A DNA stretch of 64,000 nucleotides, from positions 661 through 64,660 of the forward strand of contig CAYOCJ010000002.1 in NCBI GenBank assembly GCA_964402565.1, written 5' to 3'. Made by a program: the position numbers and the translations under genes. The DNA comes from an uncultured Gammaproteobacteria bacterium. Its GTDB lineage: Bacteria; Patescibacteriota; Patescibacteriia; UBA1558; 2-01-FULL-52-15. Below are positions 9,354 through 62,878 of this stretch, in pieces; positions within the stretch are counted from its first letter, which is position 1, and every line of letters begins with the position of its first letter. The notes under the pieces are model-generated. The model saw only the letters and a list, made by a program, of their open reading frames with translations, had not been told where the DNA came from and did no database searches.

Positions 9354-9797
9354 ATGCAATACAAAATAAAATCACGGACCATACTGTTCGGCATAGTGTT
9401 TGTGGCAATACTATCTCTGTCGTTGCTCTTCAGCGCTCAGAGTGTCCGAGCGCAAGGTTGCTATCCAAGTGATTTTGTCGGACCACTACCACCAGGCGCT
9501 GTACGTTGCGCTGCCACTGGTGGCGGAACTGGCATCCCCCTACAGAACCCTATCAACGCAACCAGCGTTCCTGAGCTGGTGAACTCAATAGTCAAAGCAA
9601 TCCTCGGTATGGTCGGTGCTCTCGCACTCTTCATGTTCGTCTATGGCGGTATGCTGTGGATGACTTCCGCTGGAAATGCTCAGCGGATCGAGAAAGGTAA
9701 AGAAACGTTGATCTGGGCGACCATAGGTCTGGTCATCATCTTCGCGAGCTATGCAATATTGAGCTTTATTTTCACCGCGCTCAGTGGGAAAAGCTAA
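9354..9797 (+). CDS. T4SS-pilin/TrbC-VirB2-like small membrane protein (paralog 2)
   Basis: Signal peptide; FVYGGMLWMTSAGNAQRIEKGKE lies between two hydrophobic helices. Start chosen at MQYKIKS rather than the upstream in-frame Met, which overlaps paralog 1. Confidence 0.5.
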   Translation: MQYKIKSRTILFGIVFVAILSLSLLFSAQSVRAQGCYPSDFVGPLPPGAVRCAATGGGTGIPLQNPINATSVPELVNSIVKAILGMVGALALFMFVYGGMLWMTSAGNAQRIEKGKETLIWATIGLVIIFASYAILSFIFTALSGKS

Positions 9798-9798
9798 C

Positions 9799-9826
9799 TT
9801 GCAAAATAAGCGTTTTGTGGTATAAT
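9799..9826 (+). promoter_or_regulatory. Sigma-70-type promoter with extended -10 (TTGCAA-16-TGgTATAAT)
   Basis: Read directly from the sequence. It is 57 bp upstream of the paralog-3 ATG. A GGGGGTG Shine-Dalgarno lies 6 nt before the ATG at 9884. Confidence 0.6.
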
Positions 9827-9883
9827 TGTCATAGTTCTTTCTGGCGTTTACCATCTTAAAGTAACATGAAAGGGGGTGAATAC

Positions 9884-10243
9884 ATGAAAAAACTACTCAC
9901 AAAGGCATATCGCGTGGCTTATCTAGCTCCTCTGGCCCTCGGTGCAACAGCCCACGCACAAGGAGTTTCCATTGACTTTCCAAGTTCATTCGCTGGTTTC
10001 AGTTCGCAAGACCTGAAGACCACGATCCAGAACATCATTCGGATCATCGTTGGTTTCCTTGGCATCATTACCATCTTGATTATTCTCGCTGGTGGCTTCA
10101 AATGGATGACCTCAGGCGGTAGCGAAGATAAGATCGGAGAAGCAAAGAAACTTATCAGCGCTGGCGTTGTCGGTCTCGTTGTTGTCCTCGCTGCTTACGC
10201 AATCGCAAGCTTCGTTGTCAACAGTCTGCAGAAAGCTGTCTAG
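9884..10243 (+). CDS. T4SS-pilin/TrbC-VirB2-like small membrane protein (paralog 3)
   Basis: MKKLLTK... signal peptide ...AGGFKWMTSGGSEDKIGEAKK... second helix. Start moved to the Met that has the Shine-Dalgarno. Confidence 0.55.
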   Translation: MKKLLTKAYRVAYLAPLALGATAHAQGVSIDFPSSFAGFSSQDLKTTIQNIIRIIVGFLGIITILIILAGGFKWMTSGGSEDKIGEAKKLISAGVVGLVVVLAAYAIASFVVNSLQKAV

Positions 10244-10300: not shown

Positions 10301-10376
10301 ATATATTAGTGTTATGTCAGACCTAGAGACAACCATCTAGAGATACGCTTATACACTATCTCTATAATGATCCAAG

Positions 10377-10404
10377 TTGCAAAATAAGCGTTTTGTGGTA
10401 TAAT
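10377..10404 (+). promoter_or_regulatory. Duplicate copy of the extended -10 promoter
   Basis: Identical TTGCAA-16-TGgTATAAT, 578 bp downstream of the first copy. Confidence 0.6.
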
Positions 10405-10461
10405 TGTCATAGTTCTTTCTGGCGTTTACCATCTTAAAGTAACATGAAAGGGGGTGAATAC

Positions 10462-10821
10462 ATGAAAAAACTACTCACAAAGGCATATCGCGTGGCTTAT
10501 CTAGCTCCTCTGGCCCTCGGTGCAACAGCCCACGCACAAGGAGTTTCCATTGACTTTCCAAGTTCATTCGCTGGTTTCAGTTCGCAAGACCTGAAGACCA
10601 CGATCCAGAACATCATTCGGATCATCGTTGGTTTCCTTGGCATCATTACCATCTTGATTATTCTCGCTGGTGGCTTCAAATGGATGACCTCAGGCGGTAG
10701 CGAAGATAAGATCGGAGAAGCAAAGAAACTTATCAGCGCTGGCGTTGTCGGTCTCGTTGTTGTCCTCGCTGCTTACGCAATCGCAAGCTTCGTTGTCAAC
10801 TCATTACAGCAGGCCGTCTAA
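10462..10821 (+). CDS. T4SS-pilin/TrbC-VirB2-like small membrane protein (paralog 4, duplicate of paralog 3)
   Basis: Protein identical to paralog 3 except the C-terminal ...SLQQAV versus ...SLQKAV. Confidence 0.55.
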   Translation: MKKLLTKAYRVAYLAPLALGATAHAQGVSIDFPSSFAGFSSQDLKTTIQNIIRIIVGFLGIITILIILAGGFKWMTSGGSEDKIGEAKKLISAGVVGLVVVLAAYAIASFVVNSLQQAV

Positions 10822-12611: not shown

Positions 12612-14513
12612 ATGCTGGAGTTCAAACATACCAAAAAAATAGAACCACTATGGCTACTATGGTCAGCCATACTGTGCTATACGATCTTGTTCAGCATACT
12701 AGTCCTGTGGAAATACGCTCACTTCTACTATGACAATCTGGACCTGGCTATTTTCAATAATGTGTTCTGGAACACCTTGCATGGGCACTGGTTCCAGGCG
12801 AGCATACATCCGCCAAGCTACCTGGGTGACCACTTTTCGCCCTCCTTGTTTTTGCTCATGCCGTTCTATGCACTAGCGCCCACTCCTCAGACACTCCTCA
12901 TCCTGCAAACAGTAGCGCTTGGATTGTCAGCGCAACCCATCTATTTGATCAGTGAGTATATTGTTGGCAAGGAACGGAAATGGATGCCGCTGTTCATCAG
13001 CATGCTCTGGCTGGTGAATCCTCTGGTACATAATATGAATTTCTTTGAGTTCGAGCTTATGTCCTTTGCTGTGCTGGGGCTACTCTGGACGATCTGGGCC
13101 TATCTCAAAGAGAAACCAACCCTCTTCATCATTGCTTCTCTCTTCACTCTCGGCATGCGCGAAGACTTCGTCTGTATCTTTTTTGTATTCAGCATACTGG
13201 CCCTGCTGGATAAACGATCACTATTCTGGAAGCTCTATCCAATCCTTTCTTCGGCGGCATGGGGCATTCTTGCCTTCTGGACGATCAGTCTCTATGCGCC
13301 ACAGAATTCGTATAAATTTTTACGCTACTATGACTGGCTCGGGGGCACTACTCTCTGGTCCATCATCGCGAGTTTCGCCCTGCATCCGATCCAAGTACTC
13401 GCGCATCTCACCACCTGGTATAACCTGGAATTCGTGCTTGGGTTATTGTTCCCGTTCTTCTTCTTTGTCTCATTCCGGAATCGATACTCCCTGCTACTCA
13501 TTCCTCCTGCGGCGCAAATACTGCTGGCAGGTTTCGGAGGAAGCGGACTCATACTCGGCACCTACTATGCCGGTTACCTTGTTGCCATACTGTTCCTCTT
13601 ATTCGCGCTGCAGGTACGAGATTTCGACTTCACAAAACTTCCTGGATGGCTGCCGGTAGAACTCCGCTCACGACGCGTACTCTCTGCGATCATCGCTTGT
13701 GCCGCACTCTATGCTGCCGCGACCTATGGATCGATCTCGACCGCTCTTGCTTGGTGGCAGAAGCCGCATGAGCTAGTTGCTAAAGAGCATATGCTTGCTG
13801 CACTGCCTAGCGATGCTGCAGTCGCTACGACCTACTCCCTGCTACCGACCGTTTCTAGTCGACAGTATGTGTACTTATTCCCTTATGCCGCGATCGGTAA
13901 AAATCAATTCGCATTGAGTGAGTATGCGCTGCCGGAAAACACCGAGTATCTGCTTATTGATTGGGATGAAATGGTATTAGCGCAGATGCATTTCAGTCAA
14001 AACGCCGCTTTCAGTCCGTATGCAGATACGGTACCCAAAAATCTTCGAACTATACTATCTCAATTTTCTATCATTAGAGCAGAAGGTCCTATCTATGTAT
14101 TACAACGAGCTACTGATGCCGGCACAGTACAGCAGCTTGCCGCACTACGGCATACTTCTCAAACCGCGGACGCTGCAGCGACTATCACGCAAGTATCGCC
14201 AGATGCTGATCATATCGCCGTAACGATCGCTCTGCCGCAAAAGACAAACACCCAGAAATACTACTACCTTGAAGTGTCTGACGCTAGCGAAACATTCCGC
14301 CTACCGCTCGGGTACGATCTGTTTGGAATTGGCGAGCTCGACGGAGCGTCTACCGTACACATGCCTGTATTCATTGGTCCGGCCACGAAAAATATTATGC
14401 TGCGGCTCTATGCCTGGAGCAAAGGATCGATTGAGTTGAGCGGGATCAAGAGCATCCATCCGACGAGCGATGCCACAGAAATCAGTAGTTACAGTTACAA
14501 TACAACGCGATAG
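12612..14513 (+). CDS. Polytopic membrane protein (DUF2079-like / GT-C-like)
   Basis: 633 aa. N-terminal pattern YDNLDLAIFNNVFWNTLHGHWFQASIHPPSYLGDHFSP recalled as DUF2079-like. About 12 TM helices, then a soluble C-terminus. Confidence 0.4.
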   Translation: MLEFKHTKKIEPLWLLWSAILCYTILFSILVLWKYAHFYYDNLDLAIFNNVFWNTLHGHWFQASIHPPSYLGDHFSPSLFLLMPFYALAPTPQTLLILQTVALGLSAQPIYLISEYIVGKERKWMPLFISMLWLVNPLVHNMNFFEFELMSFAVLGLLWTIWAYLKEKPTLFIIASLFTLGMREDFVCIFFVFSILALLDKRSLFWKLYPILSSAAWGILAFWTISLYAPQNSYKFLRYYDWLGGTTLWSIIASFALHPIQVLAHLTTWYNLEFVLGLLFPFFFFVSFRNRYSLLLIPPAAQILLAGFGGSGLILGTYYAGYLVAILFLLFALQVRDFDFTKLPGWLPVELRSRRVLSAIIACAALYAAATYGSISTALAWWQKPHELVAKEHMLAALPSDAAVATTYSLLPTVSSRQYVYLFPYAAIGKNQFALSEYALPENTEYLLIDWDEMVLAQMHFSQNAAFSPYADTVPKNLRTILSQFSIIRAEGPIYVLQRATDAGTVQQLAALRHTSQTADAAATITQVSPDADHIAVTIALPQKTNTQKYYYLEVSDASETFRLPLGYDLFGIGELDGASTVHMPVFIGPATKNIMLRLYAWSKGSIELSGIKSIHPTSDATEISSYSYNTTR

Positions 14514-16147
14514 ACCGTGAGCGGCCCTGCGTTCATAACTTTCTTCACGAAAGGCGCTGTCTCAAGCCACTGCACTTCATGCCCTAACCGAAGTGAGCTA
14601 ACGACGATATAAGATATCGTCTCTTGTTGTAAAAAGTTCTTGCGCAACTCAAGACTCGCCGAGGTTTCCGGCTCTGAAAAGAACCAATCCATCTGCTGCT
14701 GTTTCAGCGGCGCCTGCGGTGTCTGATGATCATGTCCGCGAAAGACGAGCCGATTCAATTCGCTGGTGAGCGTGAACGATGTTTTCATGTCTGAAGTCAG
14801 CAGGTGATCATTCACCGTCGTTGCACCTCGCAGAAAATCTATCACCTGCTTCTCATCTGGCGTGATATAGTAGTAGCCATACCCATACGCGCTCGGTTCA
14901 AAATAGAGATTGATAACAAAATACAGACCAAGAGAACTGCCGAGCGCCACAGCAAGGATAAGCACGTAGATTACCCGAAGCCATTGCCTGTGTATCGCGC
15001 GGAAAAGGTAGCTGCATCCAGCATAGGCCGTTATCGCCAAAACAATATGCCAGCCATTGATGAAGCGCCTATTCACATCGAGCGGAAGATATAAGAGCAG
15101 CGGTATGATAGCGCACCAAATCAAGATCATCGCCCACCATGGATCATGCTTCTTCTGTGTGCCCATCATGAACAATCCCACGAGCGCTAAGGGTAGGAGC
15201 AATCCATATCCCCAGAGGTAGTTCGTTATGAGCGGCGAATACACCAGGTTCTGCTCATACCATGATCGCAAGACCGGCTCACTGAAAAGCGCGTAGAAAT
15301 TATAGGCAATAGTTATGAGCGCGGCGCAACCCAATAACATGAAACGCTTCAAGCTCAACCATGAGCCAGAAGTATAGATATGCCACACCGTCCATGAGCC
15401 TAAGACGGCGAAGACAATAGGCATATCATAGGGATGCATAGTACCGAGCACCAGTATGATGGCAGCGTTCACGCTATCCCAGAGCCAATTAACCTTCTCT
15501 CGATACCTGACAAAGATGAACGCGCTCGCGACTAAGGCGACCTGCGAAAAACTGAACAAAGGCGCTTGAGCGAAATTCAATAAGGTATTCCCCTCAGTAA
15601 CATACAGATCAACCGGCGAAAAGAAAAATTTTATCTGACTCGACGCCTGTAGGAGCCACGGATGCGTGATCAGATAGAGCCAGCCAAACCCTCCGGAAAA
15701 ATAGACGAAAAGACCGGCGATGACCCGCTCGACTTCATGAACAAAGAGCTGCGCCAAAAATAAATATAGCAGCCAGCAAAAGATAAGCGTGAAAAGAACT
15801 CGGTAGATCTGGTAAGCCGCATTGTTCGTCAGGTTGAACCAAGCCCCAGTCTGCCCTATCACATACCATACTGGCGAGAGCATACGTCCATGCTGCGGAT
15901 CGGTCGTATGCACATTGCGCATGAACAGTATCCCCTCCCTTCCCTGCTGTATCATATTCTTATAGACCATCTTGTCAGCAGCAGTGTAGGGATTCGCGCC
16001 AGTATACGCATACCCTGCCGGCGTATGCACGGCAAAGTTCAACTGTCCCATACTTGTGAGCAGCACGAATGTTACTGACGCTACACCATACAACCAATGC
16101 TCCCGCGTTACTCGCCTCACATACTGATAGGCTGATCGAATATTCAT
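14495..16147 (-). CDS. Polytopic membrane protein, GT-C-like (paralog B)
   Basis: 550 aa. Shares with the next ORF the N-terminal Y-x-YTGA...AAD-K-x-VY...MIQQG-x-EG-x-LFM-x-NVHT-x-x-PQ and C-terminal GH-x-HQT...MDWFF-x-EP-x-TS. Confidence 0.45.
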   Translation of the reverse strand: MNIRSAYQYVRRVTREHWLYGVASVTFVLLTSMGQLNFAVHTPAGYAYTGANPYTAADKMVYKNMIQQGREGILFMRNVHTTDPQHGRMLSPVWYVIGQTGAWFNLTNNAAYQIYRVLFTLIFCWLLYLFLAQLFVHEVERVIAGLFVYFSGGFGWLYLITHPWLLQASSQIKFFFSPVDLYVTEGNTLLNFAQAPLFSFSQVALVASAFIFVRYREKVNWLWDSVNAAIILVLGTMHPYDMPIVFAVLGSWTVWHIYTSGSWLSLKRFMLLGCAALITIAYNFYALFSEPVLRSWYEQNLVYSPLITNYLWGYGLLLPLALVGLFMMGTQKKHDPWWAMILIWCAIIPLLLYLPLDVNRRFINGWHIVLAITAYAGCSYLFRAIHRQWLRVIYVLILAVALGSSLGLYFVINLYFEPSAYGYGYYYITPDEKQVIDFLRGATTVNDHLLTSDMKTSFTLTSELNRLVFRGHDHQTPQAPLKQQQMDWFFSEPETSASLELRKNFLQQETISYIVVSSLRLGHEVQWLETAPFVKKVMNAGPLTVYRVVL

Positions 16148-17766
16148 GAACGTACCTTAAAAATTCTGACAGCGACCGAATCATAGACGCGCTGTACTCC
16201 TGGCAGTGTATCCAGCCAATCATACGAGGCTGTCATACTAGGTTTATAGATTATAATGCTGGTGATCTTGTTGTGAATGAGAAAATCCCTACGATTCGTA
16301 AAGGCTACTGATGTCTGAGGTTCGGCAAAGAACCAATCCATCTCATTCTTCTTCAGCTCATACTGTACCGTCTGATGCGCGTGCCCGACGAAGAGCCTCG
16401 TCGGCGCATATGCAGCTGAGAGTATGCCAATAAAACTAGTGCTCGGCAAGAGCACATCCTGATAGGTCAGCTGGTTGTGCAGCTGCGTCAAGGCATCGGT
16501 TATATACGGATCGAGATAGTAGTTATACTTCTCACTCAAGGTGGGCTGATAGAACAGCTGCTCAGCGATCTGATACAGCACTCCTGAAGAAAGCAGCATA
16601 GCACAGAAAATACCAACCGCGGCGCGTAGAGCAAAGGGTTTTACTGCACGCAGCAAATGCGTAAGCCCATACCAGCTAAGGAGACCCAAGGGTATCAACA
16701 AGGTATTCGCGAAACGCCGATTGATGGATGTCGGCTCATAGATCAATAGCAGTATCGCGAGCGCCCAAAACAAGACTAAGCGCCAATATTGGTCGTCCAA
16801 GGCTCGGTTACGCACCAAGTACCAAACACCGAGCAGCGCGAGCGGTCCAGTCATACCAATACCCCATAGATAATTACTGATGGAAGGCGAAAAGGCGATA
16901 TTCTGAGATAGCCAGCCAGATAATGCGGGCTCTCGAATAAGGCTGATGCCGTGGTAGATGCATGCTAGTGCCGCGCCCGTCACGAGTGGCCAGAGGCGAA
17001 TAACAATACTCGCGACGTCTTGTTGGAACACTTCGCTCAGAGCTAGAGCGGTAGTAACAATGATAAGCAGCGGTAGATCATAGGGATGCATCGCACCGAA
17101 GAGGGCAACGATGCACATGAGCGCCACACTCGACTTGAACGACCTCCGTTCTCGTAAAAACAAGAGCCACACTGCAAGTATCAACAGGTGTGAGAGTATG
17201 AATAGCGGCGACTGCAGCGTATTCGTGAAGGCGCTGAACTCTGTCACATACAGATCTATCGGTGTTTGATTAAAATGCTGCAACCAATGCACAGAGCTGT
17301 CGGCAATCTCAGGGTGAGCTATGAAATACAACCAGCCAAGGCCTGAGCTGAAAAGGACCAGGGCGAAAGCTCCGATCTGATCCCCTGTGTGAGCGAACAG
17401 TTTTCGGATAAAGCTATAGAGCAGCAATAAAAAACCAACTGTCGCTATCCAACGATAGAGATGATAGGCGAGCGGTATCGGCATATCGAGAAGTCGCGAA
17501 GTCATGCCGATAAGATACCAGTGCGGCGAGAAGAGTAGGCCGAGCTGCGGTTCGGACGTGTGCACATTCTGCATGAAGAGTCTGCCTTCCGCTCCCTGCT
17601 GTATCATCGAATAGTATACGAACTTATCAGCGACCGCTTCCAGGCCGGCGCCAGTATACTGATGCCCTGGCGGCGTTTCAAGATACAAACGTACAAAAAC
17701 GATATTCGTCGCAAGCAGAAAAAGCACTCCAATGCCGATGAACCATCGTTGCTTTCGTGTCTCCAT
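16144..17766 (-). CDS. Polytopic membrane protein, GT-C-like (paralog A), 4-nt overlap with paralog B
   Basis: 540 aa. Same conserved blocks as 14495-16147. The pair is a tandem duplication. Confidence 0.45.
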   Translation of the reverse strand: METRKQRWFIGIGVLFLLATNIVFVRLYLETPPGHQYTGAGLEAVADKFVYYSMIQQGAEGRLFMQNVHTSEPQLGLLFSPHWYLIGMTSRLLDMPIPLAYHLYRWIATVGFLLLLYSFIRKLFAHTGDQIGAFALVLFSSGLGWLYFIAHPEIADSSVHWLQHFNQTPIDLYVTEFSAFTNTLQSPLFILSHLLILAVWLLFLRERRSFKSSVALMCIVALFGAMHPYDLPLLIIVTTALALSEVFQQDVASIVIRLWPLVTGAALACIYHGISLIREPALSGWLSQNIAFSPSISNYLWGIGMTGPLALLGVWYLVRNRALDDQYWRLVLFWALAILLLIYEPTSINRRFANTLLIPLGLLSWYGLTHLLRAVKPFALRAAVGIFCAMLLSSGVLYQIAEQLFYQPTLSEKYNYYLDPYITDALTQLHNQLTYQDVLLPSTSFIGILSAAYAPTRLFVGHAHQTVQYELKKNEMDWFFAEPQTSVAFTNRRDFLIHNKITSIIIYKPSMTASYDWLDTLPGVQRVYDSVAVRIFKVRS

Positions 17767-28859: not shown

Positions 28860-30143
28860 TCATTGCAGTAACTCGTGAAGTGTCCGCAGCTCAGCGGTGT
28901 CAGTGTCCAAATACTCACGGATCTGATTCATCGCTAATGTTTCAAGCTGGCGTATCCGTTCGCGGGAGAGATATAACTTCCGACCGATATCCTCGAGGGT
29001 CATCGGCGTACCACTGCTAATCCCGAAGCGCAAGTCGAGTATGTACCGATCCCGCGGTTCCTTGATCTGGTGCAGCAAGGCACGCACGCGCTCTCGGAAC
29101 TGCTGCTGCTCATACTGTTCCTCGCCATCGACAGCTTGCGGATCAGCAACAAGCATGTGGAAGTTTTGCTCATGCGAATCGTCGATGAAATCATCGAGGT
29201 TCATTGGCTCCTCGACGACCAGCATGAGCGACTCGACCTGACCCAAGGCCCACCGGAGCCGTTTCGCGACCTCGGCCGCTCTTTCCGTGCGACTCAAGCC
29301 ATCCGGCAGTTCGCGCAACACGCGCTGCATCTTCTTGATCTTCTCTTGCTTATGCACTGGAACACGGATGAGTCGTCCCTTGTCCGCGATGGCCCGCTCG
29401 ATCGACTGCTTGATCCACCAGTACGAGTACGTAGAGAACTTGTTGCCTCGCTTGTACTCGAACTTTTCGACGGCCTTCATGAGACCGACATTACCCTCCT
29501 GGATCAGGTCCATGAACGGAACGCCGTGCGTCAGGTACTTCTTCGCGATGTGAATGACCAGACGCAAGTTCGCGTGGATCATCTCATCCCGAGCAGCCCT
29601 GATGGCATTGAGGTGGCTCCGCGCCTCAGCAAAGACCTCGTCAGAGACCCGAGGCTCCCCATGGTAGAACCTGAGGCGTCCCACGAAACTCTCTATGTCA
29701 GTGAAACGCCACTCCTCATTCGCCATCTCGAACTCAGACTCCTTCTCGCAGAACGCGCGACAGTGCTCGGACAAACCGCCAGCCAAGAGCTGCAACTTGA
29801 CCCGATGCTCTCCGAGACGCGTGAACGTCTCCTGCTCCTTGTCATAGTCGATCAGACTGTGCCGGCTCATCTCGTGCAGATACTGCGTGAACGGGACCAC
29901 CGAGTAAGGATCCTTTTTCTTGAGCCTTGCCAGTGTTGCCTGCTGTTTAGAAGTCGAGCTCGGCTGACCCTTGGCCGATCGAGGCTTACGTTCAGCGATC
30001 GGCCTCAAAGCCCGAGACGGTTCTTCGATCACCGGATCAGTACCTGTATCGAGTTGCGCGTGAAGCTCTTCTGCCTCGCGCGCAAACTGAGCAGCCTCTG
30101 CCAACTCTTCGGGGCTCAACTCAATCTGTTTACGAGACATAAT
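28860..30143 (-). CDS. RNA polymerase sigma-70 factor (RpoD/HrdB-like)
   Basis: Region 2: ANLRLVIHIAKKY...DLIQEGNVGLMKAVEKFEYKRGNKFSTYSYWWIKQSI. Region 4: TLEDIGRKLYLSRERIRQLE. Start preferred at MIMSRKQ (AAGGGAGA Shine-Dalgarno); the track ORF start at 30329 would overlap the ParB-like gene. Confidence 0.8.
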   Translation of the reverse strand: MMSRKQIELSPEELAEAAQFAREAEELHAQLDTGTDPVIEEPSRALRPIAERKPRSAKGQPSSTSKQQATLARLKKKDPYSVVPFTQYLHEMSRHSLIDYDKEQETFTRLGEHRVKLQLLAGGLSEHCRAFCEKESEFEMANEEWRFTDIESFVGRLRFYHGEPRVSDEVFAEARSHLNAIRAARDEMIHANLRLVIHIAKKYLTHGVPFMDLIQEGNVGLMKAVEKFEYKRGNKFSTYSYWWIKQSIERAIADKGRLIRVPVHKQEKIKKMQRVLRELPDGLSRTERAAEVAKRLRWALGQVESLMLVVEEPMNLDDFIDDSHEQNFHMLVADPQAVDGEEQYEQQQFRERVRALLHQIKEPRDRYILDLRFGISSGTPMTLEDIGRKLYLSRERIRQLETLAMNQIREYLDTDTAELRTLHELLQ

Positions 30144-30187
30144 CATCTCCCTTGTGCCGCGTGTAGGAAGGAACGGGTGCGTACTGA

Positions 30188-31114
30188 CTACTTCAAATCC
30201 TGGATCTTCTTCATCAGACGGCCATAGATGATGGCCGCGTTCGCCGATGCTTTGAGCAACCGCCGATAGTCCATCTCCGGACGGTTCTCGAACATCTTCG
30301 CGAGCGCCACAGGAGTCATGGAGAGCCACAGCTGCGCATCAGCAGTAGATCTCCGATAGAACGTAGTAATCGACTTGTAGTCATCGCCGGGGGTACGAAT
30401 ACGCCTCGTACCATGTCGGTAGCCGGTCTTGTTCTGGAAACGGCGAACGGCGTGGCGCATATCGGATAAACGCATCTCGTCATGCACGGCCTTCACCGCC
30501 ATCTGATACTGCTTAGTCGCTGGCACCTTGGTCAGCTCGACCGCCATCAGAACGGGCAGCTCGCCCAACTTCGAGGATGAGGGCTCGATCATCGCCTGCA
30601 CCCGCTTATCCAGCTGGAGCAGCGGGATACGAGACTGTGTCACCCATGTGAGAGACTTGCCGAGCGTGGCCGCAACCTCCGGCCATGACATCTCATAGAT
30701 CTCAGCAAGCCGACGACAGGTCTCAGCATCCTCGAGGGCTGTATGCGGCTCGCGATGGTAGTTCGCGATCGCCGACCTGAGAAGCTGTTCTCTCGAATCC
30801 GTGACCGTTACCACTTCAGCGCGGAAGATCTTCGTGTCGGCCATCTTACAAGCGATGAAACGACGTTCACCATCGACCAGTTCGTAACGGTACACCTCGC
30901 CCGGAGGGAGTTCGATGACCATCCCCGGCGTGATCTGACGGTGCTTCTTGATACTCGTAGCAAGCTCGGCCAAACGTGCCTGGTTGAAATGTTTCCTGGG
31001 CTGTCCGACGAAATTACGGATCAATCCCAAGGGGATCTCGAGAACGACCCCGGACGAGGGAGCGGTCGGCTTGCGGACAGACTTCAGGCTCTTCGCAGCG
31101 GCCGGAGTGGTCAT
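30188..31114 (-). CDS. ParB/Sulfiredoxin-domain protein (ParB-like nuclease/partition-type N-terminal domain)
   Basis: 308 aa. IPLGLIRNFVGQPRKHF...YELVDGERRFIACKMA is ParB-box-II-like. Confidence 0.55.
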   Translation of the reverse strand: MTTPAAAKSLKSVRKPTAPSSGVVLEIPLGLIRNFVGQPRKHFNQARLAELATSIKKHRQITPGMVIELPPGEVYRYELVDGERRFIACKMADTKIFRAEVVTVTDSREQLLRSAIANYHREPHTALEDAETCRRLAEIYEMSWPEVAATLGKSLTWVTQSRIPLLQLDKRVQAMIEPSSSKLGELPVLMAVELTKVPATKQYQMAVKAVHDEMRLSDMRHAVRRFQNKTGYRHGTRRIRTPGDDYKSITTFYRRSTADAQLWLSMTPVALAKMFENRPEMDYRRLLKASANAAIIYGRLMKKIQDLK

Positions 31115-31249
31115 TCAGTCTCCTCCTTGATCAGCCATCTTGGCTGAGAAAAGAAACAATTAGTGTTAGAAATGAACGATCCGTAAATTTTACGGAATCT
31201 TGCACGATACTATCATAGGCGATAAAAAATGCAATCAGAAATCTTAGGA

Positions 31250-31990
31250 AAATAAAAGGGGGACCAACGAACGTTCTTGCGAACGCCCGAAGGTCCCCCA
31301 GGGACAGAAACTGCACAGGTTGACCTGTGCACCCACCGCTTGATGCGGTCTCACTATCGCCGGCCGGCGGACGTTCGCGCGACCTGGTAGGGTCGGCATT
31401 ACGCGCCCATCGCGTGGGGTTGAGTGGCGCTACAGAGGCCGCCGCTCGCTGCGATGAATGAGGTGAGGTTTGGGAGTCCTCACAAACGTAGGGTCGATCG
31501 GGTGCGGCTCACCATGGGGTCTTGTGCTGGCGCGGGCACGACCTGTTGGGAGGGAAGGATATAATCCTTGTGCTACCCGGTTGGTCTGCCGCATGTGCGA
31601 GCTCTACCCCCTCTTAGCAGAGGCAACTGTTGGTCTTTCGACCGTGATGATGTCAGCGACGCTGCGCGTCGAACGCGGGAACCGCGCCCCCCTTCTTGAC
31701 GTTTAGCTGCATCTTCGCATGCTCCTCTGCCGACCACCTGTCGGCTGACAGTTGTGGCGTCGAGCGCCTGTGTGCCGACCTACTGAACGCGGACCGTAAC
31801 CGCGCGTACGTCGACGTACATGCGCTTCAGGAAGTCGCGGAGGTCGGCTGAGTCTGGCCCGAGCCGGCGCCGACGGCCTTGGTCGTGGTCACGGAGTCGC
31901 TACGCAACTGGTCTTTCATGATGGTGTGGAAAAAATCTCCCGGACCGAGCCTCAAGCAGCACCTCTCTTCCTTGACCATGCCGAAACGTC
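31250..31990. other. GC-rich ~740-bp stretch without any long ORF, rich in stable hairpins; candidate structured ncRNA or gene remnant
   Basis: Examples: gggggacc...ggtccccc at 31256-31297; gagctctaccccctcttagcagaggc. Every frame is broken, which is unusual for GC-rich sequence. The longest ORFs are 78 and 61 aa. Confidence 0.3.
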
Positions 31991-32392
31991 CCATACGTCT
32001 ATCGATGGCCAAGAAAAGACTAACTTGCTCTATTCCTTATACTTTCCGTTAACAAGTAAGTATCGGCTGAGCTTGCTATCCTCAAGATGCTCGTCATTAC
32101 GAGTCTGGATAGCAGCTTTCATTAGACAGCATGGCTGCCTACTTGATACAAAATTAGCCTTTTCTTGGCCACTATTTCAAAGATAAAAAGATCAAAATAT
32201 GTAACAATCAAGTACTATATCAGGTTATTGAAAACCTGTCAAGTGGAACAAAAAATGATCTTGCGCCTATCACTATTTTTTCGTAAGGTAGCTCTGCATC
32301 CCACAGAAAGCCTAAGTGGGATTTCATGTCCTTTGACAGAACGAAACTACTTACCCCCACCGTACATCTCACGACTTGAGGAGGAATACACA

Positions 32393-35424
<3,032 letters not shown>

Positions 35425-55367: not shown

Positions 55368-55430
55368 ATACTATATACCAGTATAGAGTATATAGATCAA
55401 TAAGTCAAATGATCCTACTATTTATAGCTA

Positions 55431-55459
55431 TTGACAAATACTTTATTAAATGTTAATAT
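55431..55459 (+). promoter_or_regulatory. Sigma-70 promoter (TTGACA-17-TAATAT)
   Basis: Read directly. Upstream of the small membrane ORF at 55513. Confidence 0.45.
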
Positions 55460-55512
55460 TATATATTAAGCTCTTCAAACTGCAGTTAACCCTCCTCTTA
55501 GGAGTCTAAGTC

Positions 55513-55827
55513 ATGCCCGAAAAGAAGAAGGCTTCTTTGTTCAGAAAGGTGGTGATGGGCTTTATCGTCTTCTCGTTTCTGCTCATCGCTTACCCGGCCT
55601 TGCTCATCATTCTTGCGAAAGGCCCCTCAGCCCTTCTGCAGAAGTACGGGTCGCATCAGCCCCTTTCCCCGCAGGCAGTCGGAGTCATCTTCGGCGCCCT
55701 GCCGAGCATGACGATCATCCTAGGCTTCTTTGCCATGGTACTCCTCGCTGTTTTCTGGGACCTGGCAAAGGCCTTCGTCGTCCTCTGCTACCGAATGGTG
55801 GTCCCGAAAGAAAACGGCGAACAATGA
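55513..55827 (+). CDS. Small membrane protein, hypothetical
   Basis: 104 aa, three hydrophobic segments, GGAG Shine-Dalgarno upstream. Confidence 0.4.
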   Translation: MPEKKKASLFRKVVMGFIVFSFLLIAYPALLIILAKGPSALLQKYGSHQPLSPQAVGVIFGALPSMTIILGFFAMVLLAVFWDLAKAFVVLCYRMVVPKENGEQ

Positions 55828-55934
55828 GAACTAGGCAAGAACACTGAAAGCCCGAAACGCATCAGCGGATCGGGCTTTCAAACTATATAGCATGTTCCGC
55901 GAGGAACTTTTTTTTAATATATCCAAAGTATAGC

Positions 55935-56009
55935 TGGTGCCCCTGGAGGGAATTGAACCCCCATCTCATCCTTAGGACGGATTTGCTCTATCCGTTGAGC
56001 TACAAGGGC
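55935..56009 (-). tRNA. tRNA-Arg (anticodon CCU), CCA encoded
   Basis: Acceptor gcccttg/caggggc, D-arm gctc-aacggata-gagc, anticodon loop gtCCTaa, T-loop TTCAATT. Confidence 0.7.
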
Positions 56010-56197
56010 TTATGTTTTTGTTCCTTGTGGAACATTCCAAAGGATTTATTAAAATTAAATATAGATATTTATTTTATATTAGCTAATTAAATGCGTCATA
56101 AAATAAATCATACCTACATACATTGACCCTGAGTCAACTAAAAAGCATTACAATAGTATATGAGGGCTATTTTTTTGTCTATCTAAAGGAATTAGTT

Positions 56198-56226
56198 TTG
56201 ACATTTACCTAGAAACTAACTACTAT
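56198..56226 (+). promoter_or_regulatory. Sigma-70 promoter (TTGACA-17-TACTAT) for the bactofilin-DAGK operon
   Basis: Read directly. 35 nt upstream of the ATG at 56262. Confidence 0.45.
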
Positions 56227-56261
56227 TCAAGCGTTAAAACTTAATGTTAACCTGAAAAACT

Positions 56262-56693
56262 ATGGCTATGTTTAGCAATAATCCACGGGAGGGCTCGCAG
56301 GGCGCTGCTACAGAAACATTTATAGGACCTTCGGTAAAAATGGAAGGTAATTTCTCTGGTGATGGCGATGTTGTTATTGAGGGTATTTTAGTCGGGACTT
56401 TAGCCACAAAAGGGGATGTTCGTATTGGTCAACAGGCTCTTATTGAGGCTGAGATTAGGGCAAAAAATGCTCAAATCGCAGGAAAGGTGAAGGGAAATTT
56501 GAATATATCTGGATTACTCAAGCTCGCGGGAACAGCTGTTATTCAGGGCGATGTCAAAACTCAGGCAATAGGAATAGAAGAGGGCGCAGTCCTGAATGGT
56601 AAGGTCAATATGAGCAAAGAAAAGATGGCTAAAGAAGGTACCGCGGCTGAGCGCCCGTCCACAGAAGAGCATACTGAGAAGAGCAAGGCTTAA
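56262..56693 (+). CDS. Bactofilin (DUF583) cytoskeletal protein
   Basis: Repetitive beta-helix pattern G-x-V-x-I-x-G / GKVKGNLNISG. Confidence 0.7.
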   Translation: MAMFSNNPREGSQGAATETFIGPSVKMEGNFSGDGDVVIEGILVGTLATKGDVRIGQQALIEAEIRAKNAQIAGKVKGNLNISGLLKLAGTAVIQGDVKTQAIGIEEGAVLNGKVNMSKEKMAKEGTAAERPSTEEHTEKSKA

Positions 56694-56700
56694 TTACTGA

Positions 56701-57483
56701 TTGCTGCTCTCTGCGGCAGCTCTTCTTCTACCTGCTATGTATCTCTACATCTATGACTCATTGCTGAGTCATCAAAAATACAGCTCATTCCTCACGAATG
56801 TCGAGCGTCGTTGTACTGATCTTGGTATCAATGGAAAAATAGTTCGACTGACCATTTTGAAGAATATCAAAGAAGTGGTGACCGATGCTGTGAAGCGAGG
56901 CGTTACGACGATTGTTGCGGTTGGCGATGATCAAACGTTTGCAAAAATTATCAATACCATAGCGCCGCTCGATGTAACACTCGGACTCATTCCTTCAGAC
57001 AATTCGAGTCGGATCGCTCGCGTCTTGGGTATTCCCCCAAAAGAATTGGCCTGCGACGTAATCGCGGGACGCATCGTGAAAAAACTCGATCTGGGAAGAA
57101 TCAACAATTATTATTTCTTGAATGCCGCGGAAATAACAAATGCGAAGGTTCAGATAACATGCAATGGTTATTCGCTGGCGCCTCTCACCGAGTTAAACAC
57201 GGTTCGTATCTGCAATGTAGGCTCCTATGGCGGTCCGATCCGTTCAAACCCAATGGATGGCAGACTAGAAGCTATTATCACCCCGATACAGGGCGGCTGG
57301 CTTTCAAAAAAAGAATTGCAACCAACCGTGTTGCCTTTCACGAAGATACGCATCCAGGCAACAGGGGAGGATGTTGTATCCATCCTTACTGACGAGCAGA
57401 TCATATTAAAAACACCTGCTGATGTAGAAATAGCGCCTGGGAAACTCAAGGTTATCGTCGGGACGAATAGAATGTTTGAATAA
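56701..57483 (+). CDS. DAGK-catalytic-domain lipid kinase (YegS/BmrU-like), divergent
   Basis: TTIVAVGDDQTF where GGDGT is expected. LGLIPSDNSSRIARVLGIP. Confidence 0.5.
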   Translation: MLLSAAALLLPAMYLYIYDSLLSHQKYSSFLTNVERRCTDLGINGKIVRLTILKNIKEVVTDAVKRGVTTIVAVGDDQTFAKIINTIAPLDVTLGLIPSDNSSRIARVLGIPPKELACDVIAGRIVKKLDLGRINNYYFLNAAEITNAKVQITCNGYSLAPLTELNTVRICNVGSYGGPIRSNPMDGRLEAIITPIQGGWLSKKELQPTVLPFTKIRIQATGEDVVSILTDEQIILKTPADVEIAPGKLKVIVGTNRMFE

Positions 57484-57516
57484 ATAGTCCCATCTCATGA
57501 AAACAGAGTAGCCGAA

Positions 57517-57545
57517 ACCGCCCTCCTGCAGTGCAGGAGGGCGGT
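57517..57545. terminator. Strong palindromic hairpin between convergent genes
   Basis: accgccctcctgca-g-tgcaggagggcggt. Confidence 0.45.
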
Positions 57546-57573
57546 GTATATACATACTCACTGTTAGCACCCA

Positions 57574-58263
57574 CTAAGCGGTTTTTTTCCTGAACATCCA
57601 CATCTGCTGGAGTACTGAGAAAAAAGTAGTCGAGAACCAATAGAGTGCCAGGCCGGCCGGAAAACGAGATCCAATAATAACAGTCATTACCGGCATCATA
57701 TAGAGCATCTGGGAATTCATGGCTGAAGTCATGGAACCGGCCTTTTTATTCTTGGCCATAAGCATTTTCGTCTGCCAGAATTGGGCGAGCCCTGCCATGA
57801 GCGCGAGTATAAGATTCGGCTTCAAAAGATCAAGGAAGCCAAAAGCGAAGGTGCTCAAAGAGCCTGGACTCGCTATACCCGGGTACAGCAGTTCGAAGCT
57901 TTGATTCTTGAGACCATGTATAAACACCTGATAGACAGCGATGAGTATCGGTAGCTGTATCAAGAGCGGCAAACAGGAAGAAAAAGGATTTATTTTCTCT
58001 TGCTTATACAACTGCATCATCTCCGTACCAAGCTTTTCGCGATCATCCTTATACCTCTCTTTCAACTCTTCAACTTTCGGCTGTATGGTCTGCAGCGCTT
58101 TCTGGGATATGATGGCGCGCCGGTTCAGTGGATACAGCACCAACTTGATGATCAGCGTCAGCACGATGATAGTAACACCCAGGTCATGACCTGGGATGGT
58201 GTTATACAAAAAGATCAATAGGTTAAAAAGTGGCTTGTATAATACTTCGGTATAAATAAACAT
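57574..58263 (-). CDS. yidC: Membrane protein insertase YidC (short form)
   Basis: LGVTIIVLTLIIKLVLYPL...LPLLIQLPILIAVY. Confidence 0.85.
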   Translation of the reverse strand: MFIYTEVLYKPLFNLLIFLYNTIPGHDLGVTIIVLTLIIKLVLYPLNRRAIISQKALQTIQPKVEELKERYKDDREKLGTEMMQLYKQEKINPFSSCLPLLIQLPILIAVYQVFIHGLKNQSFELLYPGIASPGSLSTFAFGFLDLLKPNLILALMAGLAQFWQTKMLMAKNKKAGSMTSAMNSQMLYMMPVMTVIIGSRFPAGLALYWFSTTFFSVLQQMWMFRKKTA

Positions 58264-58272
58264 ACTGTGGTG

Positions 58273-58536
58273 TTAGGTTATAGGGTCAATGCCGCCTGTA
58301 TTCCAGGGATTACAGCGAATAATACGGTAGACGCCCTTCAGACTGCCTCGTACTATACCATACCGTTCGATAGCTTGGTATGTATATTCTGAGCAGGTTG
58401 GATGAAAACGGCAATAACCATGTGGGAAAAGGGCCGCAACTATGCCTGTATCCGGAGATACCGTCCTCTGATAGAGCCGTATCAGCTGCAGAACAGCTCT
58501 GCGTGGAAGTAGGAGCACGCTAGTACTTATAGCCAT
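58273..58536 (-). CDS. yidD: Membrane protein insertion efficiency factor YidD
   Basis: CRFHPTCSEY. Confidence 0.85.
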   Translation of the reverse strand: MAISTSVLLLPRRAVLQLIRLYQRTVSPDTGIVAALFPHGYCRFHPTCSEYTYQAIERYGIVRGSLKGVYRIIRCNPWNTGGIDPIT

Positions 58537-58877
58537 AGGCGAGACTTTGTGAGTAAGGCTTCGACTTCTTGTTTCAAAGCTTGAAAATCAAGCTGCCGTG
58601 CCTGGGGACGCGCAATGATCAAGACTTCAAGGCCTGTTTTTAATTGAGGAAGTTCTGCCCGGATAATTTCTCGAAGCCTTCTGCGCAATAAGTTGCGCTC
58701 AACTGCCTTCTTGCTCACCTTTGTGGAGACTACGAAGGCAAAACGGGTTGGCAGTGAGCGATCTGTTCCTTGTGGAGCAATGCGAAAGGTCAATGAAGTA
58801 CCAAAAAAAGGTTGCCCAATGCGCGCAAGCCTCTTAAATACCGGATCACCGCGCAAACGATGAGCACGGGAAAGCAT
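58527..58877 (-). CDS. rnpA: Ribonuclease P protein component
   Basis: FAFVVSTKVSKKAVERNLLRRRLRE. Confidence 0.85.
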   Translation of the reverse strand: MLSRAHRLRGDPVFKRLARIGQPFFGTSLTFRIAPQGTDRSLPTRFAFVVSTKVSKKAVERNLLRRRLREIIRAELPQLKTGLEVLIIARPQARQLDFQALKQEVEALLTKSRLWL

Positions 58878-58883
58878 ACAGAC

Positions 58884-59024
58884 TTAGACTGTTAGTTTTT
58901 TTCGTCCCTTGGCTTTTCTGCGACGAATAACCTTGCGGCCACCGGCGGTCGCCATACGAGCCCTAAATCCATGCGCTCGCACACGCTTTCGTTTTTTCGG
59001 TTGATAGGTTCGTTTTGTTGCCAT
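58884..59024 (-). CDS. rpmH: 50S ribosomal protein L34
   Basis: Hand translation: [46 protein letters not shown]. Below the track cut-off. Confidence 0.9.
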
Positions 59025-59169
59025 AGATACTAGAAAAAAGTATCACATATACCTTGCTTTGTAAATGCATAGGTCGCGGAGTGTACTAGTACAATGATTT
59101 TTGAGCAGCATTGCCACAAGTAGAGGGCTGGACAGAATAAAAAATATGAGGTACTACGACATACACAGA

Positions 59170-59178
59170 TTATCAACA
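59170..59178. promoter_or_regulatory. DnaA-box-like 9-mer TTATCAACA in the rpmH/dnaA divergent intergenic region
   Basis: 8/9 match to TTATCCACA. Confidence 0.35.
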
Positions 59179-59259
59179 GTATGTGCACGATAAGGGCGTT
59201 TCTGTGAATATCCTTTTGTGCTATTCTAGGACCTATCAAAAGCTTGTATACAAAAACCC

Positions 59260-60636: not shown

Positions 60637-60718
60637 AAAATGTGTTTAACTGTTTCTCATATTCTGAATATCTAAACCTTATACACAAAAACAAAAAACT
60701 TACTTTTTTCTTCACCCA

Positions 60719-60866
60719 AACATCCACAACAACATACCCAGCCTCATCCAAAATTTGTACACACACAGCACCTCATTTTTTACTACATAATCAAGCCAAA
60801 ACCCACCCCCCAACACTTACCCACCTATCCACACACCCTATTATTATAACTATCAATAGTATATAA
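60719..60866. promoter_or_regulatory. Candidate oriC segment in the dnaA-dnaN spacer: DnaA boxes plus AT-rich element
   Basis: aCATCCACA (60719-60727), cTATCCACA (60825-60833), then the AT-rich run ttattataactatcaatagtatataaaa. Confidence 0.4.
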
Positions 60867-60885
60867 AACCCCTAATAAGAGTTGT

Positions 60886-62702: not shown

Positions 62703-62878
62703 ATTTTTGTAAAAGAAAAGCGCACCCCCCCCGTGTGGAGATGCGCCGTAGCCGAATTCTTCTGGCAAGGACGATAGGCATATCTGCCTCCAAAAAAAGG
62801 AGGGCGCGAGAACCGTGAGGTCCCCGCGCCCTGAAGACCGCGCTTGCGCGCGGGCTGGTTGTGGGAAGGAAGGTACGG

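What the first reader, a model, noticed from the sequence alone, without database searches (positions are those of the whole stretch)
31250..31990. 740 bp of GC-rich, hairpin-dense, ORF-free DNA between the ParB-like gene and guaB
In about 60 % GC sequence, random frames are normally open for hundreds of codons, yet all six frames here are short. The region contains many strong helices, for example gggggacc-...-ggtccccc with a nested cgttc/gaacg. Hand searches for bacterial RNase P (GGAAAGUCCGG / ACAGAA-CCGGCUUA) and tmRNA (tRNA-like ends, tag ORF) motifs were negative. It could be a large structured ncRNA of unknown class, a cluster of regulatory elements or a decayed gene.
Basis: seen in the sequence. 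Interest (0 to 1): 0.55.

Follow-up and report, generated by a model that had tools for sequence, protein, structure and literature searches.

The report
Orphan GC-rich noncoding transcription unit
A 0.74-kb GC-rich, gene-free stretch in an unsampled Patescibacteria (CPR) genome is real and lies inside a promoter-to-terminator unit of about 0.95 kb on the minus strand, but no related sequence could be found in the collections searched, so a functional RNA cannot be told apart from a dead gene.

Summary
The block is real. It is the longest ORF-free run in the window (778 bp) and has the highest G+C of any such run (0.58, against 0.28-0.50 for the others). Its longest stop-free stretch (86 codons) is shorter than in shuffles (145±35, p≈0.009).

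"Hairpin-dense" holds only at the left end (31250-31400). The 650-nt body folds no better than shuffled sequence on either strand.

The block sits in a 1278-bp spacer between a ParB-like gene and guaB (true start 32393). Minus-strand signals bracket it:
- the best sigma-70-like promoter in 20 kb (32242-32214);
- two tandem intrinsic terminators (31331-31312 and 31299-31247).

There is no Rfam, Pfam or NCBIfam hit and no protein or DNA homologue. Codon usage shows no coding signal. A weak 3-base periodicity appears at 31690-31930 (family-wise p≈0.03).

The organism has no close relative in any collection searched (nearest guaB 60% identical), so covariation cannot be tested.

Best reading (0.4): an independently transcribed RNA of about 0.95 kb with no ORF. 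Main rival (0.3): a transcribed, decayed orphan gene. Interest is modest.

The parts
32214..32242 (-). Sigma-70-type promoter: TTGACA (32242-32237), 17-nt spacer, TGnTATAGT (-10 at 32219-32214). The inferred start site is near 32207. It lies back-to-back with the weaker guaB promoter-like site at 32228-32256 (+).
   Evidence: 11 of 12 matches plus an extended -10 TG, the best site in 20 kb. The sequence was read. Transcription itself is inferred, not shown.
32006..32171 (-). AT-rich 5' domain. A 21-22 bp closing stem (arms 32171-32151 and 32026-32006) encloses three hairpins, giving a four-way junction.
   Evidence: I1: 21-nt arms, 90% complementary, 124 nt apart; minus strand -76.7 kcal/mol, z -5.8; plus strand -57.6 kcal/mol, z -4.2. 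G-U pairs therefore favour the minus strand.
31340..31990 (-). GC-rich body (62-63% G+C) with no ORF, no codon-usage signal, and no folding signal beyond composition.
   Evidence: frameshift-tolerant codon score z 0.6-1.8, against 16-18 for control genes. (fold z -0.6 to -1.7). (dinucleotide signature typical of this genome).
31691..31930 (.). Sub-segment with weak 3-base periodicity. Codon-like phases are +1/-0, then +0/-2. The strand is not resolved.
   Evidence: maximum chi2 25.0, family-wise p=0.026 against 500 shuffles.
31312..31331 (-). First terminator-like hairpin (UGCACAGGU-CAAC-... 8 bp) followed by GUUUCUGU. It is preceded by a small hairpin, ACCGC-AUCAA-GCGGU.
31247..31299 (-). Main intrinsic terminator: an 8-bp and a 9-bp stem with a GCAA tetraloop (31299-31258, -34.4 kcal/mol, z -6.6), then UUUUAUUUU (31257-31249).
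   Evidence: The sequence was read. The U-tract is present only on the minus strand.
31141..31154 (-). Copy of the motif TCTTTTCTYRGCCA in the ParB-like 5'UTR, where it pairs with the AAGGAGG ribosome-binding site. The other two copies are the arms of the 5' domain (32006-32019 minus, 32158-32171 plus).
   Evidence: 3 matches, all in this spacer, against 0.11 expected. The motif was defined after seeing the sites.
31806..31819 (.). Perfect 14-nt palindrome GTACGTCGACGTAC inside the periodic segment.
   Evidence: (I7) and 63: single copy in the window. About 0.04 such palindromes are expected per 740 nt by my own arithmetic.

Best explanation
The GC-rich block is the body of a self-contained minus-strand transcription unit of about 0.95 kb that produces an RNA with no protein-coding capacity.

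Transcription would start at the near-consensus sigma-70 promoter at 32242-32214, which diverges from the guaB promoter. It would first copy a 166-nt AT-rich four-way-junction domain (32171-32006), then about 650 nt of 62% G+C sequence. It would stop at two tandem intrinsic terminators (31331-31312 and 31299-31247), which also shield the downstream ParB-like/sigma-70 operon from read-through.

Shown: the sequence signals, their common orientation, the absence of ORFs and codon signal, and the stable structure of the two end domains.

Inferred: that the unit is transcribed, and that the RNA itself is the product, with its high G+C held by selection against a roughly 40-45% G+C intergenic background. 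The end domains would then give stability, and the body would carry an unknown binding or scaffolding role.

It is not demonstrably a large, highly structured RNA.
For: - The promoter is the top-scoring site in 20 kb (11/12 plus extended -10) and points into the block.
- Two tandem terminators have U-tracts only on the minus strand, and the genome uses the same kind of terminator at real gene ends.
- The 5' domain has z -5.8 and the 3' hairpin cluster z -5.2 to -5.6. Both are more stable on the minus strand than on the plus strand.
- The block is the longest and most GC-rich ORF-free run in the window.
- No frame scores as coding: the frameshift-tolerant codon score gives z 0.6-1.8, against 16-18 for controls and 4-16.5 for four local genes without a Pfam hit (the atypical 62.9-kb ORF pair scores only 0.3-2.4).
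- No ORF with a strong Shine-Dalgarno sequence and ATG is present, whereas both neighbouring genes have AGGAGG-type sites.
- No protein family or homologue matches any of the six frames.
- Simulated decay of native GC-rich genes loses the codon signal only after at least 0.3 substitutions per site, by which point G+C has fallen to about 0.53. The block is still 0.62.
- Long GC-rich intergenic regions are the known hunting ground for bacterial ncRNAs (PMC6429828, PMC8632094, PMC11109978).
Against: - The 650-nt body shows no thermodynamic sign of defined structure on either strand.
- A weak 3-base periodicity at 31690-31930 (family-wise p=0.026), with codon-likelihood values near gene level, suggests coding ancestry for about 240 nt.
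- No homologue was found, so there is neither conservation nor covariation.
- The nearest syntenic relative (guaB-purA...tig; L027/L028) has no such block upstream of guaB, so the element sits at a synteny breakpoint.
- Several real genes in the window reach 60-68% G+C, so high G+C alone does not mean RNA.
- In the 50-genome GC-IGR survey, most of the IGRs selected for in-depth analysis ended as 'unnamed' or 'low-ranking' (PMC11109978).
Confidence: 0.4

Rival explanations
1. Transcribed relic of an orphan protein-coding gene on the minus strand. The promoter, a long 5'UTR, an ATG near 31994 and the terminators would be those of a former gene of about 220 codons. That gene has since collected several frameshifts and nonsense mutations, and the RNA has no function of its own.
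For: - 3-base periodicity at 31690-31930 (chi2 25, family-wise p=0.026), with GC1/GC2/GC3-like phases that switch frame about every 100-200 nt.
- Codon likelihoods of -5.73 to -5.79 bits per codon in frames +1/-0 at 31700-31800, close to the real-gene range of about -5.5 to -5.8.
- The ATG at 31994 is in the frame (-2) that scores best at 31850, and a gene caller called a 50-aa ORF there.
- The dinucleotide signature is native-like.
- G+C is within the range of the most GC-rich genes of the window.
- The block sits at a synteny breakpoint.
- Many neighbouring genes are orphans without Pfam hits.
Against: - The path through the frames needs at least 4 frameshifts and at least 5 stop codons (read), which is heavy decay.
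- G+C is nevertheless still 62%, and the left 400 nt show no periodicity (p=0.31) and no codon signal.
- Simulated decay to this signal level drops G+C to about 0.53.
- The promoter and both terminators are intact and strong.
- No homologue was found for any frame.
- The strand of the periodic signal cannot be told from its antisense shadow.
Confidence: 0.3
2. One or more real small proteins are encoded in the block. Candidates are the 50-55-aa minus-strand ORF from 31994/31979, the 51-aa plus-strand ORF 31696-31851, and the 78-aa plus-strand ORF 31470-31706.
For: - A gene caller called the 50-aa ORF on the Logan contig.
- The periodic segment overlaps the 51-aa and 50-aa ORFs.
- The 78-aa ORF has a GAGGT site 5 nt upstream of its TTG start.
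Against: - None has an AGGAGG-type site with an ATG start like the neighbouring genes.
- Codon scores are below gene level except over about 150 nt.
- The 50-aa ORF occurs on one contig only.
- The exhaustive search of the +0 frame (31800-32183) found nothing among 1.84 billion proteins. The other frames were not searched exhaustively.
Confidence: 0.08
3. The whole 1.1 kb is a long regulated leader of the ParB-like/sigma-70/ABC operon. The tandem terminators would act as conditional attenuators, and the 5' domain as a sensor.
For: - The orientation is the same as the operon.
- Only weak promoter-like sites (9/12) lie between the terminators and the ParB-like start.
- The 14-nt motif shared between the 5' domain arms and the ParB-like 5'UTR sits in a hairpin that hides the ribosome-binding site.
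Against: - No alternative antiterminator pairing was identified.
- RNA-RNA duplex energy between the RNA and the ParB-like 5'UTR is not better than for shuffled UTRs.
- Relatives that keep the ParB-like/sigma-70 pair have gaps of only about 150 nt upstream.
- By my own knowledge, a leader of this length would be exceptional in bacteria.
Confidence: 0.08
4. A DNA-level feature or inert DNA. Options are a cluster of protein-binding sites near the ParB-like gene, or a piece of non-coding DNA left by a rearrangement or transfer. In this reading the promoter and terminators belong to neighbouring functions.
For: - The perfect 14-nt palindrome at 31806-31819.
- Three copies of TCTTTTCTYRGCCA confined to this spacer.
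- The synteny breakpoint.
- dnaA and dnaN lie 27 kb away, so the region is near the origin, where ParB sites often lie (the last point is my own knowledge).
Against: - There are no iterated sites inside the GC block.
- The palindrome is single-copy.
- The motif statistic is post hoc.
- The dinucleotide signature is native, not foreign.
- There is no match in phage or plasmid collections.
Confidence: 0.07

Closest known systems
'Unnamed' or 'low-ranking' candidates from the GC-IGR pipeline for long, GC-rich bacterial intergenic regions (Stav 2019 PMC6429828; Brewer 2021 PMC8632094; Narunsky 2024 PMC11109978)
   Same: It is a long intergenic region whose G+C lies far above the genome's other intergenic regions. 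It has no known ORF and no known RNA family.
   Different: Those candidates are ranked by the number of homologues and by covariation. Here there are no homologues at all, so it cannot rise above 'unnamed' (for the categories).
Large bacterial ncRNAs of unknown or emerging function (OLE, GOLLD, ROOL, HEARO, raiA)
   Same: The size class is similar (0.5-1 kb). It is a stand-alone unit with its own promoter and terminator, and it lacks ORFs.
   Different: There is no covariance-model match even at E<=10. The body shows no folding signal. It has no conserved ornate architecture, no multiple copies, and no phage or tRNA association.
Transcribed bacterial pseudogenes
   Same: It has an intact promoter and terminator around a body with stop codons in all frames, and traces of codon periodicity.
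   Different: No intact homologue exists to define the parent gene. The decay needed is heavy, yet G+C stays high.
Invertible promoter switches and MITE-like hairpin elements (considered for the 32006-32171 domain only)
   Same: It has 21-nt inverted repeats flanking a 124-nt AT-rich segment, and the Logan contigs break at the right arm.
   Different: No promoter-like site lies inside the segment. No recombinase gene is nearby. No second copy occurs in the window, the viral contigs or the metagenome contigs.

Membership tests
Any Rfam 15 family (including RNase P, tmRNA, 6S, OLE, GOLLD, ROOL, HEARO, raiA, group I/II introns, riboswitches) | Covariance-model score at or above the family's gathering threshold | tested here: not met
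   the whole window yields only 3 tRNAs; at E<=10 over 31000-32500 there are only chance matches (best 20.5 bits against a threshold of 155). ARAGORN finds no tmRNA.
Large structured ncRNA (generic) | Secondary structure supported by covarying base pairs across homologues | not testable with these tools
   No homologue was found in 29 fetched loci, the phage or plasmid collections, two metagenome scans or one viral scan. The nearest guaB is 60% identical and the nearest ParB-like protein 38%.
Large structured ncRNA (generic) | Folding more stable or better defined than composition-matched shuffles | tested here: inconclusive
   Met for the 5' domain (z -5.8) and the 3' hairpin cluster (z -5.2 to -6.6). 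Not met for the 650-nt body (z -0.6 to -1.7, entropy at null). By my own knowledge, known large RNAs can also give weak z-scores.
Independent transcription unit | Promoter and intrinsic terminator in the same orientation bracketing the element | tested here: met
   Promoter at 32242-32214 (11/12 plus TG). Terminators at 31331-31312 and 31299-31247, with U-tracts on the minus strand only. This is sequence evidence only.
Independent transcription unit | Detected transcript with mapped 5' and 3' ends | not testable with these tools
   No expression data are available. The run accession SRR12313479 appears in no searchable paper.
Pseudogene | Translated similarity to an intact gene, across frameshifts | tested here: not met
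   Pfam and NCBIfam on all six frames. Concatenated six-frame query against 5.8 billion proteins (weak, because of the candidate cap). Exhaustive phmmer of one frame. tblastn against the window and the fetched loci.
Pseudogene | Residual codon periodicity or codon usage | tested here: inconclusive
   Periodicity at 31690-31930 only (family-wise p=0.026), none at 31250-31650 (p=0.31). Codon score z 0.6-1.8.
GC-IGR ncRNA candidate | Intergenic region that is an outlier in both length and G+C within its genome | tested here: met
   778 bp at G+C 0.584, against at most 434 bp and at most 0.503 for every other ORF-free run in the window.

The most novel reading that the evidence does not exclude
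The unit encodes the first seen representative of a new class of large (about 0.95 kb) noncoding RNA restricted to an unsampled Patescibacteria lineage. It would have a four-way-junction 5' domain and a GC-rich body kept by selection. It would be expressed from a strong promoter next to the origin-proximal ParB-like/sigma-70 operon.
Probability: 0.25. Interest if true: 0.55.

Novelty: new member of a known kind. Interest (0 to 1): 0.3.

Why it matters
CPR/Patescibacteria genomes are small and tightly packed, so 1.3 kb without a gene is costly and calls for an explanation. To my knowledge, few noncoding RNAs specific to this group have been described. If the unit makes a functional RNA, it would add a large ncRNA to that list.

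As it stands it is a single sequence from one sample, with no relatives. Its value is as a flagged target for RNA-seq and for re-searching once related genomes appear.

The informative signals lie at the edges of the block and outside it.

Tried and rejected
- **Known RNA families:** rejected.
- **Phage or plasmid origin:** blastn found no match.
- **Paralogue of a neighbouring gene, or a second copy in the window:** none.
- **Homologue next to ParB-like relatives or guaB relatives:** none in 29 loci (213 kb). These include the syntenic Hainich groundwater MAG (GCA_964357225.1). A faint tblastn match to its guaB upstream spacer turned out to be chance on alignment.
- **Recoding of UGA:** rejected. 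TGA ends 8 of 36 genes, and the best minus frame also contains a TAA.
- **Foreign DNA:** the dinucleotide signature is native, at the 35th percentile.
- **Base-pairing of the RNA with the ParB-like 5'UTR:** not better than shuffled controls.
- **Inverton or MITE reading of the 32006-32171 inverted repeat:** no internal promoter, no recombinase, and no other copy in the window, metagenome contigs or viral contigs.
- **Exact 22-mer of the palindrome region in metagenome contigs:** none.
- **Concatenated six-frame query to the exhaustive protein search:** Only the +0 frame 31800-32183 could be run. In hindsight the +1/-0 frames at 31650-31890 would have been the better choice.

Full report
**What is there.** The window is 49.5% G+C. 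Its genes average 51%, with G+C at codon positions 1/2/3 of 0.56/0.39/0.57. The stretch 31250-31990 is 61-65% G+C and is flanked by AT-rich spacers at 31115-31255 and 31990-32392.

The left neighbour is a ParB-like protein (ParB_N plus HTH_ParB, 30188-31114, minus strand). It is followed by a sigma-70 factor and an ABC transporter. The right neighbour is IMP dehydrogenase, followed by adenylosuccinate synthetase. The mechanical ORF for guaB starts at TTG 32165. The IMPDH profile begins at residue 93 of that ORF, and an ATG with a GAGGAGG site lies at 32393. The true spacer is therefore 31115-32392, or 1278 bp.

**Is the observation more than chance?** Among all runs not covered by an ORF of at least 80 aa, this one is the longest (778 bp; the next is 434 bp). 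It is also the most GC-rich (0.584; the others are 0.28-0.50).

- In 1000 dinucleotide shuffles of the block, the longest stop-free stretch over six frames averages 145 codons (5-95% range 99-211).
- The observed longest stretch is 86 codons, and only 0.9% of shuffles are that short.
- The total number of stops (38) matches expectation (36.5±4.4).

The quoted helix is real (31258-31299).

"Hairpin-dense" is not supported for most of the block.
- In 150-nt windows, only 31175-31400 beats its shuffles (z -5.6 to -6.5 on the minus strand). All windows between 31325 and 31999 give z from +1.1 to -2.4, which is the same range as the flanking genes.
- The 591-nt body 31400-31990 has z -1.7 (minus) and -1.5 (plus).
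- For 31340-31990, MFE, ensemble diversity and positional entropy all sit at the null mean.
- The z of -3.1/-4.5 for the full 741 nt is carried by the left-end hairpins.

**Signals around the block all point to the minus strand.**
- A TTGACA-17-TGnTATAGT promoter lies at 32242-32214. It is the best sigma-70-like site in 20 kb, with 11 of 12 matches plus an extended -10.
- About 35 nt downstream of the inferred start lies a 166-nt AT-rich domain (32171-32006). It is closed by a 21-22-bp stem and contains three hairpins (I1). Its z is -5.8 on the minus strand (-76.7 kcal/mol) against -4.2 on the plus strand (-57.6 kcal/mol).
- At the other end there are three hairpins in a row. The last two are terminator-like: 31331-31312 followed by GUUUCUGU, and 31299-31258 followed by UUUUAUUUU. 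The second has 17 bp, a GCAA loop, -34.4 kcal/mol and z -6.6.
- On the plus strand the same hairpin is preceded by A's and not followed by T's, so it terminates minus-strand transcription only.
- The genome uses the same kind of terminator at real gene ends, for example 27155-27126, 25339-25310 and 22361-22331.
- Together these signals define a unit of about 0.95 kb, 32207 to 31250, nested between the divergent ParB-like and guaB genes.

**Is it coding or a dead gene?**
- No frame reaches gene-like codon likelihood between 31250 and 31650.
- A frameshift-tolerant dynamic-programming codon score gives z 1.8 (plus) and 0.6 (minus) for the block. ParB-like and guaB controls give 18 and 16. Four local genes without any Pfam hit give 4-16.5; the atypical 62.9-kb ORF pair gives only 0.3-2.4.
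- Six-frame translations hit nothing in Pfam (E<=10) or NCBIfam (E<=1).
- A concatenated six-frame query found nothing among 5.8 billion proteins. That test was weak because of the candidate cap.
- An exhaustive phmmer of the longest open frame (+0, 31800-32183) found nothing among 1.84 billion representatives.
- tblastn against the rest of the window and all fetched loci found nothing.
- No ORF has the AGGAGG-plus-ATG start that both neighbouring genes show.

There is one positive hint. 3-base periodicity appears at 31690-31930, with maximum chi2 25.0 and family-wise p=0.026 against 500 shuffles. The G+C phases look like codon positions and change register about every 100-200 nt. Codon likelihoods at 31700-31800 are near gene level in frames +1/-0. 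The left 400 nt have no such signal (p=0.31).

A simulation argues against a simple relic. I applied AT-biased decay with indels to native GC-rich genes. The codon signal fell to the observed level only at 0.3 or more substitutions per site, by which point G+C had dropped to about 0.53. The block is still 0.62. The mutation model is my own and arbitrary, so this is only indicative. The dinucleotide signature of the block is typical of the genome (35th percentile), so it is not recent foreign DNA.

**Relatives.**
- The ParB-like protein has one exact match, in NCBI and Logan. A Logan contig from run SRR12313479 (L001) is 100% identical over 31115-32172. Otherwise there are only 31-38% identical homologues in Parcubacteria-type genomes.
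- The nearest IMP dehydrogenases are 60% identical. The few that carry a source name are mostly from Patescibacteria, with some from DPANN archaea. The organism is therefore a Patescibacteria/CPR lineage with no close relative in the collections searched.
- Loci that keep the ParB-like/sigma-70 pair have upstream gaps of only about 150 nt.
- The best syntenic relative (guaB-purA...trigger factor; GCA_964357225.1) has other genes upstream of guaB and no GC-rich ORF-free run.
- nhmmer and blastn of the whole spacer against 29 loci found nothing.
- Searches of phage and plasmid collections and exact-pattern scans of metagenome and viral contigs found nothing.
- Covariation, the decisive test for a structured RNA, cannot be done.

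**Judgement.** What the sequence shows directly is a complete minus-strand promoter-to-terminator unit. Its ends are stably structured. Its 650-nt GC-rich body is neither coding nor detectably structured.

I rate "independently transcribed noncoding RNA" at 0.4. The points in its favour:
- the strong, intact signals;
- the end domains that prefer the minus strand;
- the high G+C kept in a genome whose other spacers are 28-50% G+C;
- the absence of any frame.

I rate "transcribed relic of an orphan gene" at 0.3. The points in its favour:
- the periodic 240 nt;
- the native signature;
- the synteny breakpoint;
- the unstructured body.

Small proteins, a giant leader of the ParB-like operon, and a DNA-level site cluster share the remainder.

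In the terms of the GC-IGR surveys, this is an "unnamed" candidate with insufficient evidence to classify. That category and "low-ranking" together made up most of the IGRs taken to in-depth analysis in the 50-genome study (PMC11109978).

**Novelty and interest.** The region matches no known family. But long GC-rich spacers with an unclassifiable putative RNA are a well-known kind of finding, and this one is a singleton. Interest is 0.3. If relatives or RNA-seq showed a conserved, expressed 0.95-kb RNA in a CPR lineage, it would deserve about 0.55.

Noticed in passing
window 59260-61992 and 55368-59235: dnaA (59260-60636) and dnaN (60886-61992) are in the window. The AT-rich stretches just upstream (G+C 0.28-0.43) probably hold oriC. 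The finding and the ParB-like gene lie about 27 kb from it.
   Followed up: partly
window 62861-63607: A 64-68% G+C stretch carries two overlapping ORFs on opposite strands (219 and 242 aa). There is no Pfam hit. The 3-base periodicity is very strong (chi2 91-115), but the score with the native codon model is poor. This may be an atypical, possibly acquired, orphan gene.
   Followed up: partly
window 9796-10095 and 10374-10673 (also 11131, 11532): A 300-nt direct repeat, 100% identical, is spaced 578 nt apart. Shorter related repeats lie further on. It looks like a tandem array of short paralogous units in a region without long ORFs.
   Followed up: no
window 14495-17766: Two adjacent genes (550 and 540 aa, minus strand) share 70-86% identical segments at a constant 1652-nt spacing, so they are tandem paralogues.
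   Followed up: no
window 31124-31154 (minus strand): The 5'UTR of the ParB-like gene folds into a hairpin. In it, UCUUUUC pairs with the AAGGAGG ribosome-binding site. The same 14-nt motif forms the arms of the 32006-32171 domain.
   Followed up: partly
window 32144-32172; L001 and L032: Two Logan contigs from SRR12313479 overlap by 29 nt and both end here, exactly at the right arm of the 21-nt inverted repeat. This may be ordinary strain-level fragmentation, or heterogeneity at this site.
   Followed up: partly
window 28860-30329 vs 30188-31114: The mechanical sigma-70 ORF (489 aa, GTG start) overlaps the end of the ParB-like gene by 142 nt. The gene caller on the Logan contig starts it later (426 aa), so the long form is probably an artefact.
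   Followed up: no
L017/L018 (GCA_964551765.1 and SRR12313479): A 31% identical ParB-like paralogue (P0005) occurs in the same sample, on a 333-kb NCBI contig, in a different gene context. It may belong to the same genome as the window or to a co-occurring relative.
   Followed up: no
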